A stretch of DNA of 64,000 bases from Escherichia coli (GTDB lineage Bacteria > Pseudomonadota > Gammaproteobacteria > Enterobacterales > Enterobacteriaceae), in NCBI RefSeq assembly GCF_050920415.1, contig NZ_CP169309.1, one strand, 5' to 3'. The stretch's first letter is position 1, and every line of letters begins with the position of its first letter. The notes beneath the pieces were generated by a model that was given only the letters and a program-made list of their open reading frames with translations, was not told the DNA's origin and did not search any database. A program made the position numbers and the translations under genes. Positions 1-4,957 of this stretch are shown here, piece after piece.

Positions 1-793
1 TACGAATAAATGCATGCATAAGCATTGCATTATGCAAATATGTCCACATGGTCTCAAGTAATGGGGGTTATTTAACCTTCCCTATATGCTATAGATAAAT
101 CTACCAAAAACTGCCCCTTCGTAGAGGGGCGCTATGATTTTGTTTTATTTGAAGGCATGGTGCTGAATGTATTCGTTGAATCCAGATTCAACACCTGAAG
201 CTGCACTTAACCCATAATACTTGTTTCTGGTTCCTCTACCGAGTGGTCAAACAATGATATGTATGTGACGTCAGAGTTTATTTTTTTAGTGTTTAATGCT
301 ATTAATTTAACGTAGTTACCTATCTTTTTTCTACCTTCTGAACTAACCTTAGGTTTCAACGTAACCGGCAGGAGGGGCTATCCCCAATCTTAAATTTTGC
401 TGCCCGATTTGCTCAAGCCAAAGTTTTAATTTTACAACCTATAAACCTGAGTTAAATCAACCTCATGGTGCTGTCTGTTCCCGCTGTGGAACAAGACTCA
501 CTGCAACATCTTGCATTCCTAAACTTCGCAGAAGGCGATGGGCAAAAACTGTACTGTAATGTTATTTCGATGTCTCTTATGGTAAATAGGAGGCATCGAG
601 GCTAAGTGAGCAGCCTGCTTGCTTCTCAATCCTGGATACTATCAGCATTCACGCAGATGAAATGATGATATTTCGCGTAAGAAAGAGGCATTTTTTTATC
701 AACTTCACATCGGAGATGGTAATAATCCTATGGGTCCAGTCCATATGAGGGGGCAACATACTATAAAATTCACAATCATAAATTAACTATATA

Positions 794-2269
794 TCAAGAA
801 CGCCAAAAAAATCCTGAAAATAGTATAATAACAGGGTAAATTTCAAGTCGACCAAGAATCATAGCAATACACATGAGATATTTTGCAATATCATTAAGAA
901 CACCGAATGAGGATGCGGTAGCCCCAAAACCCAGCCCCATATTATTAATGCATGCAGCGACTGTCGCAAATGATGTAAGGAAATCATATCCCATACCATT
1001 TAGCACCAGTATAAAAAACACTGTAAAGAAAGTATAAAGAAAAAAGAAACTCCATACAGACCTCATTACGCGGTCTGTAACAATCTTCCCTCCTACATTT
1101 ACACTAAGCAATGCTCTGGGATGAGAAAGCTGATTTATTTCGTGTTTACTTTGTTTAAAAAGTATAAGAAATCTAAGTGATTTAATTCCGCCGCACGTTG
1201 AGCCTATACATCCCCCAAAAAAACTTGACAGCAGCAAAAAAACTATCGTATGTGTGGGCCAGTTTGAATAATCCTGCGTAGCTAAACCATTATCAGTGAG
1301 CATGGAGCTAGCAAGAAAAAACGAATGAACAACACTTCCAGTTAAGTCATACATACCTATATGCCAGACCTGGAAAGAGGTAACAATGATAACACCTGAA
1401 GCTATTAACAAAAAGAAACGAAGTTCAACATCTCTGAGTAAGGGTTTTATTGTTTTCCTGCTTATAACAACATACCAAAGAGTGAAGTTGAAAGCCGATA
1501 ACAGAGAAAAAGAGCCCGCCACCAGTTCAATCAAATAATTATTGAAATAGCCGATACTCTCACTATGAGTTGAAAAACCGCCAAGAGAAACTGTAGAAAG
1601 TCCATGACAAATAGCATCAAACAAAGGCATTCCTGCAAGTCGATAACAAACAATACAAGCAATGCCTAATAAAGAATAAGTTATCCAAAGTGTCCGCGAC
1701 GTATCAGCCAAGCGTGGAGTCAGTTTGTCATCCTTAAATGGCCCTGGCATTTCTGACTGATAAAGTTTTGCACCACCAATACCCAATAATGGCAACACAG
1801 CAACTGCCAGAACAATAACCCCTAAACCGCCTATAAAATTTAATTGTGACCGGTAGAACAAATATGCCCGAGATAATGAACTGACATCATCAATTACTGT
1901 TGCTCCTGTTGTTGTTATTCCGGAAACCCCTTCAAACAGCGCGTCAGCAAACGTTAAATTAAGCTCTGAATCAATCCATAATGGAAATGCGCTAATAATA
2001 GAAAATAAAATCCAAAACATTACAATTATAATAAACCCATCACGGGTGCGTAATTGAATGCCAGATTTTTTAGTGGTATACCACGCTCCGCCACCAATAC
2101 AAAAAAATATAACAAAAGTAATAAAAAAAACGAACAAGCTTTTTTCTTTATAAAACAATGCTACAACCATTGGTGGTAACATTGAAAGACTATAGAGCCA
2201 GACCAAGAACCCACACATATGAGTTACAACTCTTACATGAGATGTATTCATATCCAAATGTTCTTTCAA
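794..2269 (-). CDS. TrkH/TrkG-family potassium uptake membrane protein (divergent paralog)
   Basis: 491-aa polytopic membrane protein with TrkH-like motifs (GLTTTGATV, GGCxGSTxGG); low-GC context. Confidence 0.8.
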   Translation of the reverse strand: MKEHLDMNTSHVRVVTHMCGFLVWLYSLSMLPPMVVALFYKEKSLFVFFITFVIFFCIGGGAWYTTKKSGIQLRTRDGFIIIVMFWILFSIISAFPLWIDSELNLTFADALFEGVSGITTTGATVIDDVSSLSRAYLFYRSQLNFIGGLGVIVLAVAVLPLLGIGGAKLYQSEMPGPFKDDKLTPRLADTSRTLWITYSLLGIACIVCYRLAGMPLFDAICHGLSTVSLGGFSTHSESIGYFNNYLIELVAGSFSLLSAFNFTLWYVVISRKTIKPLLRDVELRFFLLIASGVIIVTSFQVWHIGMYDLTGSVVHSFFLASSMLTDNGLATQDYSNWPTHTIVFLLLSSFFGGCIGSTCGGIKSLRFLILFKQSKHEINQLSHPRALLSVNVGGKIVTDRVMRSVWSFFFLYTFFTVFFILVLNGMGYDFLTSFATVAACINNMGLGFGATASSFGVLNDIAKYLMCIAMILGRLEIYPVIILFSGFFWRS

Positions 2270-2447
2270 TTATAACCACCTTACTGCAATGTCATGATTA
2301 TACTGTATAAATTTTAACTCTTCTTAGATCTTACTTCACTGGTCCTTATGAAACAATCAGCAAAATGAATCTTATTATAACACTGTTCGGTTATGTATTG
2401 TTGAGCCTTCCCGCTGGGCCTGCATCATTACAAGTCGCTCCCTATGG

Positions 2448-3144
2448 GGCTTTGTCGAATAAATAATTTTTCGGTAAGTATCCCCCTGAGCAGGTTGTAT
2501 CTTCAGGCAGTATGAACACTTTCTGGCATACCTACCTTCGTCATTATGTTCAGCGTATGCACCATGACCAAAGCCTCTGCAACCGGCCTATCATAATCTA
2601 GCAGCATCAGAGAACCTCAGAATAACTGTTTTACCCTGTTCATTGCCGTTTCCGCTATTGAGCGACGATTGTAATCTTTTGTCCATTTTCACCGGGAATT
2701 ACCCTCGGTCAATCGCTGATACGCGACTGCACAGTTACGGTCGGCATACTCACCGGGCCAGTAACCCGCTCCTTTTTGGGGTGGGATGAGCGCGCTGATT
2801 TTCACACGGCGCAGCTGCTCGTAACAGAGCCGAGAGGCGTAAACTCCGTCTGCTGCTGTCCTGATTTTTTGATGGGTTTGCCGGATTAATCCGGCTACAC
2901 CTCTACATCCGTTACGCTGAATGCTGAGGTCGCCCTTGGGAAGAAGGCATTGCTGACTTATACCAATCCGAAATCACCTCCTCGAGCAACCAGACAGGGA
3001 GGGGCCTCGGTTGATAAGAGCTCTGTTATTGATGTGCCAGTTGGTGATTCTAACTTTTGCTTTGTAACGGGACGAGCCGTGTTGGCAGATGATGTGTGGT
3101 CTGATCCTTAAACTCAGTAAAAGTACGATTTATTCAAAAAAGCC
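2448..3144. mobile_element. IS903-like (IS5 family) element, internally deleted, with both terminal inverted repeats
   Basis: Left end ggctttgtcgaataaat and right end gatttattcaaaaaagcc are inverted copies resembling the IS903 terminal repeat; about 700 bp is shorter than the full IS. Confidence 0.55.
2689..2972 (-). pseudogene. Truncated IS5/IS903-family DDE transposase (C-terminal fragment)
   Basis: Minus-strand translation gives ...DGVYASRLCYEQLRRVKISALIPPQKGAGYWPGEYADRNCAVAYQRLTEG, interrupted by an upstream stop and lacking a start. Confidence 0.5.
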
Positions 3145-3204
3145 CCTCCACTATGATTTCGATTTAAGGGGCTGATGATTATGTAACGCGAATTTACCGG
3201 ATCC

Positions 3205-4581
3205 TTACGAACCTTTCTTTATCCTGCTCTTGCCCCTTTCGGTAAGCCCATTCTCTGTCATGTATTTTCTGGCAGTGAATATATTAATGCTGTGGTCAGT
3301 ACAAAACCCCTTAACACCCTTGATCTTTTCCCGCTGAACCTGGGGCATCTTCGACCATTCCCGGACGAGATTTTTGGTAACTCTGTTCCATTTCTCTGGT
3401 TTGTTCAGCTTCGCTCGGCCCACCCAGGTTAATCCGTCCTTGCTCAAATTCAGGTAATGACGTGCTGTGCACGGCCGGATGTTGTGGCTCTCACACCACT
3501 TATTGAAATCGACGTTGCGCCGCTCATCCGAGGTCATCATCGACCATTTCCGGATAACCTCGTAGGGAATGGGGAGCTTTATGGCAACTTTCGACCTTAC
3601 CCTGACGCGACGTTGCGGGACTGTCTCATGTTTCGCACTCAGGTTTTCTTCCGACAGTGCGGAGAGGGAGGACCTGAAATCAAGTGATTCTGGCTGGTTA
3701 TGTGACAACAGTGTCGCGGCAATGGCGTGAAATCGGGCACTATCCACACTTCCACAGACCTTCACACTGCCATCACTGACATCAATATTCACTAATTTGC
3801 TATTACTAATAGTTTTCGTGAAGGTGATGGTGTGGCCGGAAAAACAGAAACTAAACTTGAACGGCTCAGTGAAAAGCTTAGTGAGTTGCGGGTCAGCCCC
3901 CACCTCCGCCCGGTACGTAAACAGTGCATTCGTCATGGCAACTACCAGTTCGTTAGCCTCGTCCGTATTCTCGATGATTAAATTTTTCATCTGATTCAGA
4001 ATTTTCTCGCTGCTCTGGAGCAGCAGCGGGGGCCGGGGCAATGTCGCGCCCATGGCGAGGTTGGAGTAGCATGGCGTTAGCATGTAATTCACTCCTTCCC
4101 GTTGTTTTTCTTCTGTGATAGAAGGGCTGAAATCATCTATTCCGGGCTGGCGACTGCGTGAGACCAGTGTTGTGACAAAGGCGTTAAACAGATAACAATC
4201 AGCATAGCCACAGGCACTCCTCCCATCCTTGCTGACCATAATATTCACGCAATTGTCCCCATTAAAATCCATATGCGTGTTGGTGAAGGTAATGGTGTGG
4301 TCGGAAAAACTAAAACTGAACGACTCAGGAATTTGCAGACCACGCGCCCTAGGCATGTCTGGATTATCCGGCAGTTTAGCCATCTGATTTGGCTGCAGTG
4401 CGGTCGCCATGACATCCGCCAGTTCGTTAATCTGGTCAGAACTCATCGTGCTACAGTCCGTATTTCTGTGAATTAAATTTATCATCTCCCGCAGATGAGT
4501 CCTGCAACTTTCCTGGCTCTGCAGGAGCTGGGACAGTGTCACAGCCGCGTTAATGCGGCATGGTGTTACCATATAATACAA
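3205..4581 (-). CDS. Hypothetical protein with two tandem homologous domains
   Basis: 458-aa ORF; repeated blocks [16 protein letters not shown]... and [16 protein letters not shown]...; low GC; no family recognised. Confidence 0.5.
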
Positions 4582-4902
4582 TCCTTTTTCTCAGGGGGGT
4601 TGATATTCCGGATCGTGCCGTGTTTGCCCACGGCTCCCCCTGGAGAGCTGCAGACCTGTTTATTTAACTCGCACAGCGCCGGGGCCTGTCAGCAAACAGG
4701 GAGCATAACCGTCGTGCCATTAAACGCCAGACGGGAGATCATTATTATTTTATTAATACAGATCCGTTGCATTCCGGTCTTTACCGCAGTTTAAAAGAAA
4801 AGAGAATAGGGACTTAGGCAGTAGAGCAGTCATTGGACAGACCACACTACCCCAAACTAGCAGGGGAGTTTTGATAAAATTTTGATAACCGTTAGCAGGC
4901 TA

Positions 4903-4937
4903 ACAAAACACAACGGGCGTGTTATACGCCCGTTACA
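4903..4937 (-). terminator. Rho-independent terminator downstream of icd
   Basis: Hairpin aacgggcg/cgcccgtt followed by a U-rich tract on the minus strand just past the icd stop. Confidence 0.5.
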
Positions 4938-4957
4938 GTTTTTAACACATGCAGAAA

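What the first reader, a model, noticed from the sequence alone, without database searches (positions are those of the whole stretch)
1..4957. Low-GC islet abutting the icd 3' end
Downstream of icd lie a divergent TrkH/TrkG paralog, an internally deleted IS903-like element with both inverted repeats, and a 458-aa protein, all AT-rich. The Icd C-terminus (...AIIKNM) differs from the K-12 ending I recall (...AIIENM). icd is the known integration site of the e14 element, which supplies a replacement icd 3' end, so this looks like a different integrated element.
Basis: partly seen in the sequence, partly recalled or inferred. Interest (0 to 1): 0.5.

Follow-up and report, generated by a model that had tools for sequence, protein, structure and literature searches.

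The report
Decayed prophage remnant beside icd
The 4.8 kb between icd and iraM in this E. coli is the immobile, patched-together leftover of one or more phages that once integrated at the well-known icd attachment site; it keeps a working-looking potassium transporter gene (trkG) and one fast-evolving gene of unknown function, which is ordinary genome decay rather than a new mobile element.

Summary
The window is E. coli (100% to strain MFDS1022581). The islet spans window 105-4906, between iraM and the icd terminator, and occurs at this locus in 18 of 5,426 complete E. coli genomes. It is a mosaic:
- a 100-bp e14-type attL arm abutting the icd terminator
- an orphan 455-aa gene, paralogous to a single-gene islet between ygjK and fadH
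- a dead IS903-like element (about 355 bp deleted, no target duplication)
- the last ~74 nt of a phage Rz gene plus trkG (89.5% nt, 96% aa to Rac-type trkG)
- 640 bp of unknown non-coding DNA

There is no integrase, no excisionase and no duplicated icd 3' end at the far border. Upstream of position 1 lie iraM and core genes.

The AIIKNM ending is not evidence of replacement. The same Icd protein (WP_000444487.1) occurs in a strain with an empty site.

Only the trkG half is AT-rich (31-40% GC). The rest is 44-52% GC.

trkG is under purifying selection (13 synonymous, 2 non-synonymous changes). The orphan evolves fast (dN/dS about 0.7) but stays open.

Verdict: a grounded prophage remnant at the phage 21/e14 attB. 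Interest is low.

The parts
1..61 (+). 3' end of iraM (a divergent allele, about 80% nt to the K-12 allele). It lies outside the islet.
   Evidence: RefSeq annotation of the identical genome; blastn against K-12 and TUM18780.
62..104 (.). iraM-downstream intergenic DNA, homologous to the empty-site sequence. This is the left flank of the islet.
   Evidence: Homology to TUM18780 runs from window -267 to 104. The islet replaces only 6 bp of the empty site.
112..131 (.). G+C-rich hairpin with T-runs on both strands. It is a likely bidirectional terminator for iraM and the minus-strand islet genes. It sits where the icd terminator sits in empty-site strains.
   Evidence: Terminator scan; junction comparison. 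Function is inferred.
105..744 (.). Non-coding DNA of unknown origin with no ORF over 50 aa. It includes a 41-bp ymgJ-like fragment at 656-696.
   Evidence: Found only in the 18 islet genomes. The distant search gave only the 41-bp ymgJ match. ORF list.
794..2251 (-). trkG, an intact 485-aa Trk-family K+ transporter of prophage origin.
   Evidence: TIGR00933 scores 406 bits against a cut-off of 331. phrog_1916 matches full length. 96% aa to the Rac-type TrkG. 13 synonymous against 2 non-synonymous changes among 7 genomes. It is the only trkG-like place in the carrier genomes.
745..2442 (-). Block homologous to Rac-like lambdoid phages. It holds the trkG 3' flank, trkG, its AT-rich upstream region and the last ~74 nt of the Rz endopeptidase gene (about 2369-2442).
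   Evidence: 89.5% over 1,719 bp to a prophage remnant at icd in WCHEC050613 and to ten phage records annotated Rz + Trk.
2448..3144 (-). Dead IS903-like (IS5 family) element with about 355 bp deleted from the interior. Both terminal inverted repeats are present. No 9-bp target duplication (TCCCTATGG against CCTCCACTA).
   Evidence: PGAP calls it a transposase pseudogene.
3205..4572 (-). Orphan 455-aa gene. It has two N-terminal alpha/beta modules and two C-terminal ~60-aa helical repeats.
   Evidence: No Pfam, NCBIfam or PADLOC family. Paralogs sit between ygjK and fadH. Internal repeats. Structure model and fold matches. dN/dS is about 0.7 with the ORF kept open.
4573..4804 (-). Upstream (promoter) region of the orphan gene, co-copied with it.
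   Evidence: 78% nt identity to the ygjK-fadH locus extends to window 4804.
4805..4906 (-). e14-type attL arm remnant with TTATCAAAA repeats. This is the right edge of the islet.
   Evidence: Alignments to K-12 e14 and MCJCHV-1 attL. 37 bp match many e14-type attL flanks exactly.
4907..4957 (-). icd rho-independent terminator (native type).
   Evidence: Terminator scan. Homology to the empty site resumes at 4907.
4958..6208 (-). icd, intact. Its last ~165 nt plus the terminator are the phage 21/e14 attachment homology and carry a strain-specific recombination patch.

Best explanation
Window 105-4906 is a 'grounded' composite remnant of one or more lambdoid prophages that integrated at the phage 21/e14 attachment site in the 3' end of icd.

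What survives, reading from icd:
1. the phage-side arm of attL
2. a cargo gene in the slot that lies between attL and int in e14-type elements
3. a dead IS903-like element
4. the end of the lysis cassette ('Rz) with its downstream moron trkG
5. about 640 bp of unassigned DNA ending in a hairpin terminator

Inferred history:
- The IS903-like element inserted, and an adjacent deletion removed int, xis, the early region and most of the lysis genes.
- A second deletion removed the late genes, attR and the displaced icd 3' end. It possibly used microhomology between terminator T-tails.

The result cannot excise or move by itself. It now spreads only vertically or by homologous recombination of the surrounding haplotype.

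Functionally, trkG is kept as the strain's only TrkG-type (Na+-dependent) K+ uptake subunit and is probably H-NS-dampened in its AT-rich setting. The orphan is a real, rapidly evolving gene of unknown role. icd itself is untouched at the protein level.
For: Shown:
- An e14-type attL arm directly abuts the icd terminator.
- In e14-type elements the attL-int slot holds variable cargo: ymfD/ymfE/lit in K-12 and Septu PtuA/PtuB in MCJCHV-1. The orphan sits in the same position.
- The 'Rz-trkG block is 89.5% identical to Rac-like phages and prophages.
- The same order and orientation (icd, int', lysis, Rz, trkG..., icdC, iraM) is seen in a less decayed prophage at icd in WCHEC050613.
- The IS remnant has no target duplication and separates two unrelated blocks.
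- No integrase lies inside the islet or upstream of it.
- The islet is a clean indel against the empty site in TUM18780, replacing only 6 bp.
- It occurs in 18 of 5,426 genomes at one locus, with 98.6-100% identity.
- trkG shows 13 synonymous against 2 non-synonymous changes, and D327 is conserved.

From the literature:
- icd is the shared attB of phages 21, e14 and NC-SV (PMC12803456; PMC6379469).
- TrkG is Na+-dependent and partly silenced by H-NS (PMC9898762).
Against: - No icdC copy remains at the iraM border, so integrase-mediated entry cannot be shown from both junctions.
- The left deletion would have to end within a few bp of the end of the terminator homology, which is a coincidence unless microhomology guided it.
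- The orphan gene and the 640-bp left segment have no phage relatives: tblastn against phage records found none, an IMG/VR scan found none, and the nucleotide search of window 99-2447 against phage records matched only from position 745 onward.
- The attL arm is e14-type, whereas the only trkG-bearing prophage seen at icd (WCHEC050613) has a different arm. The pieces may therefore come from two elements.
Confidence: 0.72

Rival explanations
1. The islet is a live or recently integrated element that supplies a replacement icd 3' end. Its integrase and second att site would lie just outside the window.
For: An attL-arm homolog lies next to icd. This strain's icd 3' 283 bp is an unusual DNA allele.
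Against: - Upstream of position 1 are iraM, an AriR-family gene, ycgX and bluR, with no recombinase.
- There is no icdC at the border.
- The Icd protein is identical to that of an empty-site strain.
- Other islet carriers have a different 3' allele with the same islet.
Confidence: 0.03
2. The block is not a local decay product. It arrived ready-made by homologous recombination of a long divergent haplotype from another Escherichia lineage. On this reading the islet's history happened elsewhere, and the 18 genomes share it by introgression.
For: - The left flank (ymgF to ycgX, 6.8 kb) is only 91.7% identical to other E. coli, which are 96.7-97.2% identical to one another there.
- The divergent iraM plus an extra AriR-family gene occur in exactly the same 18 genomes.
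- Recombination patches are frequent across the region.
Against: - This concerns how the carriers got the block, not what the block is, so it is compatible with the prophage-remnant reading.
- One exact-match scan of species-representative genomes with a 27-nt islet probe found nothing. That is weak evidence because a single mismatch would hide a match.
Confidence: 0.35
3. The whole 6.25 kb between the live icd terminator and a fossil icd end beyond iraM (window -1407 to -1343) is a single old element. Its attR-side cargo was iraM plus an AriR-like gene. The short iraM cassette of other E. coli would then be a more deleted version of a related element.
For: - A second copy of the icd terminator lies between ycgX/ymgL and iraM. 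In the window genome it also keeps about the last 15 nt of icd. In K-12 and TUM18780 the terminator alone is present.
- AR_0104 lacks iraM and has icdC directly next to ymgL.
- The iraM cassette ends exactly at the live terminator in empty-site strains.
Against: - The fossil is short (about 65 bp, 79-82% identity).
- iraM alleles differ by 20%, so homology of the two cassettes could reflect separate events.
- No phage gene is linked to iraM in any genome examined.
Confidence: 0.3

Closest known systems
e14 cryptic prophage of E. coli K-12 and e14-type elements at icd (for example in MCJCHV-1)
   Same: Same chromosomal site. Homologous attL arm immediately after the icd terminator. A variable cargo slot follows the arm.
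   Different: No intE/xisE, no regulatory or structural genes, no icdC at the other border. The cargo is an orphan gene rather than lit/ymfDE or Septu.
Rac prophage and Rac-like lambdoid phages carrying trkG downstream of the lysis cassette
   Same: Rz-trkG adjacency and orientation. 89.5% nt and 96% aa identity. AT-rich moron.
   Different: Located at icd rather than ttcA. Everything but the last ~74 nt of Rz and trkG is gone. The sequence downstream of trkG (ynaK side) is replaced from window 744 leftward.
Degraded trkG-bearing prophage at icd in E. coli WCHEC050613 and relatives
   Same: Same locus, same gene order (icd, integrase side, lysis, trkG, iraM) and the same Icd protein.
   Different: That remnant keeps an integrase fragment, holin, endolysin and Rz, IS1 copies, mcrC and an icdC pseudogene. 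It has a different attL arm sequence.
IS903 / IS903B (IS5 family)
   Same: Terminal inverted repeats and about 700 bp of homology.
   Different: Only 76-80% identical. About 355 bp are deleted, the transposase frame is destroyed, and there is no target duplication.
Orphan gene between ygjK and fadH in about 650 E. coli genomes
   Same: 78% nt identity over the N-terminal modules and the upstream region. Same MVTPC... start.
   Different: Those paralogs have 2-3 N-terminal modules and a basic low-complexity tail. The window copy instead ends in two helical repeats. Such repeats are otherwise found in Salmonella SET-domain proteins and in Rouxiella, Serratia and Pandoraea proteins.

Membership tests
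icd-integrating lambdoid prophage (phage 21 / e14 type) | Phage attL arm contiguous with the icd 3' end and terminator | tested here: met
   Window 4805-4906 aligns to the e14 and MCJCHV-1 attL arms, with 37 bp identical.
icd-integrating lambdoid prophage (phage 21 / e14 type) | Tyrosine integrase (and excisionase) gene | tested here: not met
   No such ORF in 1-4957. RefSeq annotation 20 kb to the left shows none.
icd-integrating lambdoid prophage (phage 21 / e14 type) | Duplicated icd 3' end (icdC) at the far junction (attR) | tested here: not met
   No repeat of the icd 3' end lies within 1-4900. The only copy is a 65-bp fossil beyond iraM, outside the islet.
icd-integrating lambdoid prophage (phage 21 / e14 type) | Phage-supplied replacement of the last ~165 nt of icd | tested here: inconclusive
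   The protein is identical to that of the empty-site strain. The DNA of the segment is a unique allele, 93% to other carriers and 96% to an icdC of AR_0104. Recombination patches are common in the region.
icd-integrating lambdoid prophage (phage 21 / e14 type) | Phage structural, replication or lysis genes | tested here: not met
   Only the last ~74 nt of Rz remain.
TrkG (Trk/Ktr/HKT K+ transporter, prophage-borne) | Full-length TrkH-family membrane subunit above the family cut-off | tested here: met
   TIGR00933 scores 406.3 bits against a cut-off of 331. The TrkH equivalog scores 448, below its cut-off of 866, as expected for TrkG.
TrkG (Trk/Ktr/HKT K+ transporter, prophage-borne) | Close identity to Rac TrkG, including D327 linked to Na+ dependence | tested here: met
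   468 of 485 residues identical, with G322 and D327 present. The role of D327 is from PMC9898762.
TrkG (Trk/Ktr/HKT K+ transporter, prophage-borne) | K+ uptake activity | not testable with these tools
   Only purifying selection (13 synonymous, 2 non-synonymous changes) supports function.
IS903 (IS5 family) insertion sequence | Terminal inverted repeats | tested here: met
   16 of 20 positions match between 2448-2467 and the reverse complement of 3125-3144. The repeats are close to the IS903B ends.
IS903 (IS5 family) insertion sequence | Intact transposase ORF and 9-bp target duplication | tested here: not met
   About 355 bp are missing, stops occur in all frames, and the flanks are TCCCTATGG and CCTCCACTA.
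Type III secretion effector (PipB2_N-like) | Recognisable effector domain by sequence profile | tested here: not met
   No Pfam hit for the protein itself. PipB2_N reached only E = 1.6e-3 in one distant relative. A PDB profile search found nothing.
Type III secretion effector (PipB2_N-like) | Fold similarity to a solved effector domain | tested here: inconclusive
   Foldseek match to the PipB2 N-terminal domain (2lez) with probability 0.97 but E = 0.09 and TM-score 0.53, from a model with mean pLDDT 66.
Type III secretion effector (PipB2_N-like) | Secretion or translocation | not testable with these tools
   Needs a reporter-fusion assay.
Anti-phage defence system (cargo of the e14-type attL-int slot) | Match to a known defence protein family | tested here: not met
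   PADLOC gave 0 families for the orphan. The MCJCHV-1 cargo in the same slot matches PtuA/PtuB strongly.

The most novel reading that the evidence does not exclude
The orphan 455-aa gene belongs to an undescribed, fast-evolving modular protein family of Escherichia.
- Its N-terminal modules are PipB2_N-like.
- Its C-terminal ~60-aa helical repeats are shared with Salmonella SET-domain proteins and with a Pandoraea protein labelled IpaH-like.

On this reading the family is a set of secreted effectors or other conflict proteins.

The islet, together with the fossil icd terminator beyond iraM, would also preserve an intermediate stage showing that the RpoS anti-adaptor gene iraM itself reached E. 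coli as cargo of an icd-integrating element.
Probability: 0.2. Interest if true: 0.45.

Novelty: new member of a known kind. Interest (0 to 1): 0.2.

Why it matters
It adds one more layer to a textbook integration hotspot, the attB in the 3' end of icd shared by phages 21 and e14. It also shows how prophage morons such as trkG are retained after everything mobile has decayed.

For annotation practice, it shows that the K-12 Icd C-terminus (ENM) is not the E. coli norm. A KNM ending should not be read as a sign of an insertion.

Two side observations are modest leads rather than surprises: a fast-evolving orphan family with effector-like modules, and icd-terminator fossils flanking iraM.

Tried and rejected
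- Direct or inverted repeats of the icd 3' end inside the islet: none found.
- Integrase upstream of position 1: none found.
- Phage relatives of the orphan: none by tblastn against 50,697 phage records and none in IMG/VR.
- Family assignment of the orphan: no Pfam, NCBIfam or PADLOC family. PHROGs gave only unknown-function hits to its C-terminal repeats. A PDB sequence-profile search found nothing.
- Origin of window 105-744: only the 18 carriers match by megablast. The distant search gave only a 41-bp ymgJ-like piece. The phage search matched only from 745 onward.
- Rfam: only sub-threshold hits. STnc150 scored 36.8 bits against a gathering score of 60, over the icd terminator and attL arm. 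STnc100 had E = 0.13.
- Exact 27-nt probe of the islet in species-representative genomes: no match.
- Other contexts for the orphan's near-identical cluster: only a 2.2-kb metagenome contig.
- Papers on att-site details (Wang et al. 1997; Mehta et al. 2004) are not held in the library.
- Composite-transposon reading: rejected, because there is one dead IS with no target duplication and no second copy.

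
Full report
**Identity and context.** Window 1-6300 is 100% identical to E. coli MFDS1022581 (NZ_CP169399.1). It matches 17 other complete E. coli genomes over its full length at 98.9-99.6%. The RefSeq annotation of that genome shows the following order, reading leftward from the window: hlyE ... minCDE ... pdeG, ariR, ymgA, ycgZ, bluF, bluR, ycgX, an extra YmgB/AriR-family gene, and iraM (which ends at window 61). Inside the window come trkG (794-2251, -), a transposase pseudogene, a 455-aa hypothetical protein (3205-4572, -) and icd (4958-6208, -). After icd come rluE, nudJ, mnmA, hflD and purB. There is no integrase upstream of position 1, and the islet lies wholly inside the window.

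**Checking the observation.**
- The ORFs are as described.
- GC content is 31-40% over 1-2400 but 44-52% over 2400-4900. Only the trkG half is AT-rich.
- The Trk gene passes the TrkH-family model (TIGR00933, 406 bits against a cut-off of 331).
- It is 96% identical in protein to the TrkG of a Rac-like prophage. It is TrkG itself, not a divergent paralog.
- The IS903-like remnant spans 2448-3144. Two blocks align to IS903B at 80% and 76%, lacking about 355 bp between them.
- Its terminal repeats match 16/20 and every frame is full of stops. The 9-bp flanks differ (TCCCTATGG and CCTCCACTA), so there is no target duplication.

**Borders.** Strain TUM18780 has an empty site, with iraM and icd convergent and adjacent.
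- Homology to it runs from window -267 to 104 (80% identity, because iraM is a divergent allele here).
- Homology resumes at window 4907. Only 6 bp of the empty site are replaced. The islet is therefore window 105-4906, about 4.8 kb.
- The islet's unique parts (100-800 and 3150-4905) occur only in the same 18 of 5,426 genomes, always at this locus and never on plasmids.

**The Icd C-terminus.** K-12 icd (supplied by e14) and K-12 icdC both end ...ENM. The window ends ...KNM. The window's Icd protein is WP_000444487.1, and the same accession is annotated in three other contexts:
- the empty-site strain TUM18780
- WCHEC050613
- the seven other carriers whose annotation I fetched

KNM is therefore a native allele and says nothing about an insertion.

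The DNA tells a subtler story. The last 165 nt of icd plus the terminator (217 bp) are only 92-93.5% identical to six other islet carriers, whereas the rest of icd is 98.4-99.5% identical. A 283-bp query over this segment has no match above 95.8% in 5,426 genomes apart from the window strain itself. This is exactly the segment that phages 21 and e14 duplicate, so it has been patched by recombination. All changes are synonymous (38 synonymous, 0 non-synonymous in icd). Comparable patches occur in the IS remnant and in mnmA when the window is compared with its nearest relative, N96. I therefore treat this as local mosaicism, not as proof of a phage-supplied end.

**Anatomy of the islet, from icd leftward.**
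1. Window 4805-4906 aligns to the attL arm of e14-type elements.
   - The string GTTAGCCTGCTAACGGTTATCAAAATTTTATCAA follows the terminator exactly as it does in K-12 e14 and in MCJCHV-1, where 37 bp are identical.
   - Weaker similarity extends about 60 bp further.
2. Window 3205-4804 holds the orphan gene with its upstream region.
   - It is 78% identical in DNA to a single-gene islet between ygjK and fadH that is present in about 650 E. coli genomes.
   - In e14-type elements the position right after the attL arm is a cargo slot. K-12 has ymfD, ymfE and lit before intE. MCJCHV-1 has a Septu PtuA/PtuB pair before intE.
3. Window 2448-3144 is the dead IS903-like element.
4. Window 745-2442 is 89.5% identical over 1,719 bp to Rac-like phages and prophages. 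It covers the last ~74 nt of Rz, the AT-rich spacer, trkG and 49 bp beyond it.
   - In WCHEC050613 a less decayed prophage sits at icd with the order icd, integrase fragment, IS1, holin fragment, endolysin, Rz, trkG, ynaK fragment..., icdC, iraM.
   - That is the same order and orientation as in the window.
5. Window 105-744 has no ORF above 50 aa and no relatives apart from a 41-bp ymgJ-like piece. It ends in a hairpin at 112-131 with T-runs on both strands.

**History (inferred).** The order attL arm, cargo, [gap], 'Rz, trkG, [gap] is what a lambdoid prophage at icd would leave if two internal stretches were deleted.
- The IS remnant lies exactly at the first gap and lacks a target duplication. 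This fits an IS-mediated adjacent deletion that removed int through most of Rz.
- The second gap removed the late genes, attR and icdC.
- The left junction reads hairpin, AGTTTTTGGTAGAT. The empty site reads icd hairpin, GTTGTTTTATTTATGTAGAT. A deletion between the T-tails of two terminators is therefore plausible but unproven.
- The attL arm is e14-type, whereas WCHEC050613's arm differs. I cannot exclude that the arm plus orphan and the 'Rz-trkG block come from two successive elements that used the same attB.
- That phages 21, e14 and NC-SV share this attB is established (PMC12803456, citing Wang et al. 1997; PMC6379469, citing Hill et al. 1989).

**Is anything functional?** Among seven carrier genomes:
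- trkG has 13 synonymous and 2 non-synonymous changes, with no indels.
- The orphan has 3 synonymous and 14 non-synonymous changes.
- icd has 38 synonymous and 0 non-synonymous changes.

trkG is the only trkG-like place in the carrier genomes (one place per record), and it keeps G322 and D327. TrkG is a Na+-dependent K+ uptake subunit whose transcription is lowered but not abolished by H-NS (PMC9898762). I infer the same for this copy.

**The orphan.**
- Against its ygjK-fadH paralogs it shows dN/dS of 0.66-0.70 at dS of about 0.46, yet stays open over 455 codons. I read this as selection for an intact but rapidly changing protein.
- It has two N-terminal modules and two C-terminal ~60-aa repeats.
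- A search of 1.8 billion representative proteins found the C-terminal repeat in multi-repeat proteins. Named members include Salmonella SET-domain proteins and Rouxiella and Serratia hypotheticals.
- The AlphaFold model is confident only for the C-terminal repeats (mean pLDDT 66).
- Foldseek gave a weak match of an N-terminal module to the PipB2 N-terminal domain (probability 0.97, E = 0.09).
- It gave clear matches of the C-terminal repeats to Salmonella SET-domain proteins and to Pandoraea proteins, one of them labelled IpaH-like.
- No defence-family match was found.
- An effector-like or conflict-related role is a lead, not a finding.

**Wider setting.**
- The divergent iraM (80% to K-12) and the extra AriR-family gene occur in exactly the same 18 genomes.
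- The 6.8 kb from ymgF to ycgX is 91.7% identical to other E. coli, which are 96.7-97.2% identical to one another there. The islet is therefore embedded in a deep haplotype that may have been introgressed.
- A second, fossil copy of the icd terminator lies between ycgX/ymgL and iraM. In the window genome it also keeps about the last 15 nt of icd. It is present in the window genome, K-12 and TUM18780.
- AR_0104 lacks iraM and has icdC directly beside ymgL. This suggests that the iraM cassette is itself an older deposit at this hotspot.

**Verdict.** It is wrong about the evidence (KNM) and about the state of the element: there is no integrase, no attR, and the element is not integrated in any active sense. 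This is an ordinary grounded prophage remnant, a new example of a known kind.

Noticed in passing
L001:18593-18657 (window -1407 to -1343); K-12 L002 about 18400-18455: A fossil second copy of the icd terminator lies between ycgX/ymgL and the iraM cassette. In the window genome it also keeps about the last 15 nt of icd. It is also present in K-12 and TUM18780. AR_0104 lacks iraM and has icdC directly next to ymgL. iraM therefore appears to be flanked by icd-terminator copies.
   Followed up: partly
L001:11900-18640 (window about -8100 to -1370): The ymgF-pdeG-ariR-ymgA-ycgZ-bluF-bluR-ycgX block of the carrier genomes is only 91.7% identical to other E. coli, which are 96.7-97.2% identical to each other there. 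This is a deep or introgressed haplotype that travels with the islet.
   Followed up: partly
L001:19230-20061 (window -770 to 61): An extra YmgB/AriR-family gene and a divergent iraM allele (80% nt to K-12) occur in exactly the same 18 genomes as the islet.
   Followed up: partly
window 4898-5180: This strain's icd 3' end plus terminator is a unique DNA allele among 5,426 complete genomes (next best 95.8%). All differences are synonymous. Its closest relative, N96, differs at 12 sites within this 283-bp stretch.
   Followed up: yes
window 17954-26300 (L001:37954-46300): Prophage tail genes follow potB directly: DUF4376, tail fibre, Lom, tail tip, an IS2 and host-specificity protein J, several of them as pseudogenes. 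Another lambdoid prophage or remnant therefore appears to occupy the potBC region.
   Followed up: no
window 4864-4942 (+): Sub-threshold Rfam match to the 3' part of STnc150 (36.8 bits against a gathering score of 60), spanning the attL arm and the icd terminator on the strand opposite to icd.
   Followed up: no
window 656-696: A 41-bp fragment 93-95% identical to the ymgJ region, which normally lies about 12 kb away. It is embedded in the otherwise unmatched left segment of the islet.
   Followed up: no
L017 and L018: 9286-11303: Two islet carriers (Z0117EC0005 and 24A16CRGN010) have a further insertion on the other side of icd, where rluE lies in the window. It carries an STM2901-family gene, a DUF1493 gene and an IS3-family element.
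   Followed up: no
L008:4279-6653: The e14-type element at icd in MCJCHV-1 carries a Septu defence pair (PtuA/PtuB) between the attL arm and intE. This is the same slot that holds lit in K-12 e14 and the orphan gene here.
   Followed up: partly
L006:7764-9305, L007:7758-9302, L009:8001-9179: The orphan's paralogs form a single-gene islet between ygjK and fadH in about 650 E. coli genomes. The number of internal modules varies (392 against 513-514 aa) and dN/dS is near 1.
   Followed up: partly
hit H15 (NZ_CP043414.1, strain EC42405): One carrier has an IS100 (istA/istB) insertion inside the islet, lengthening it by about 2 kb.
   Followed up: no
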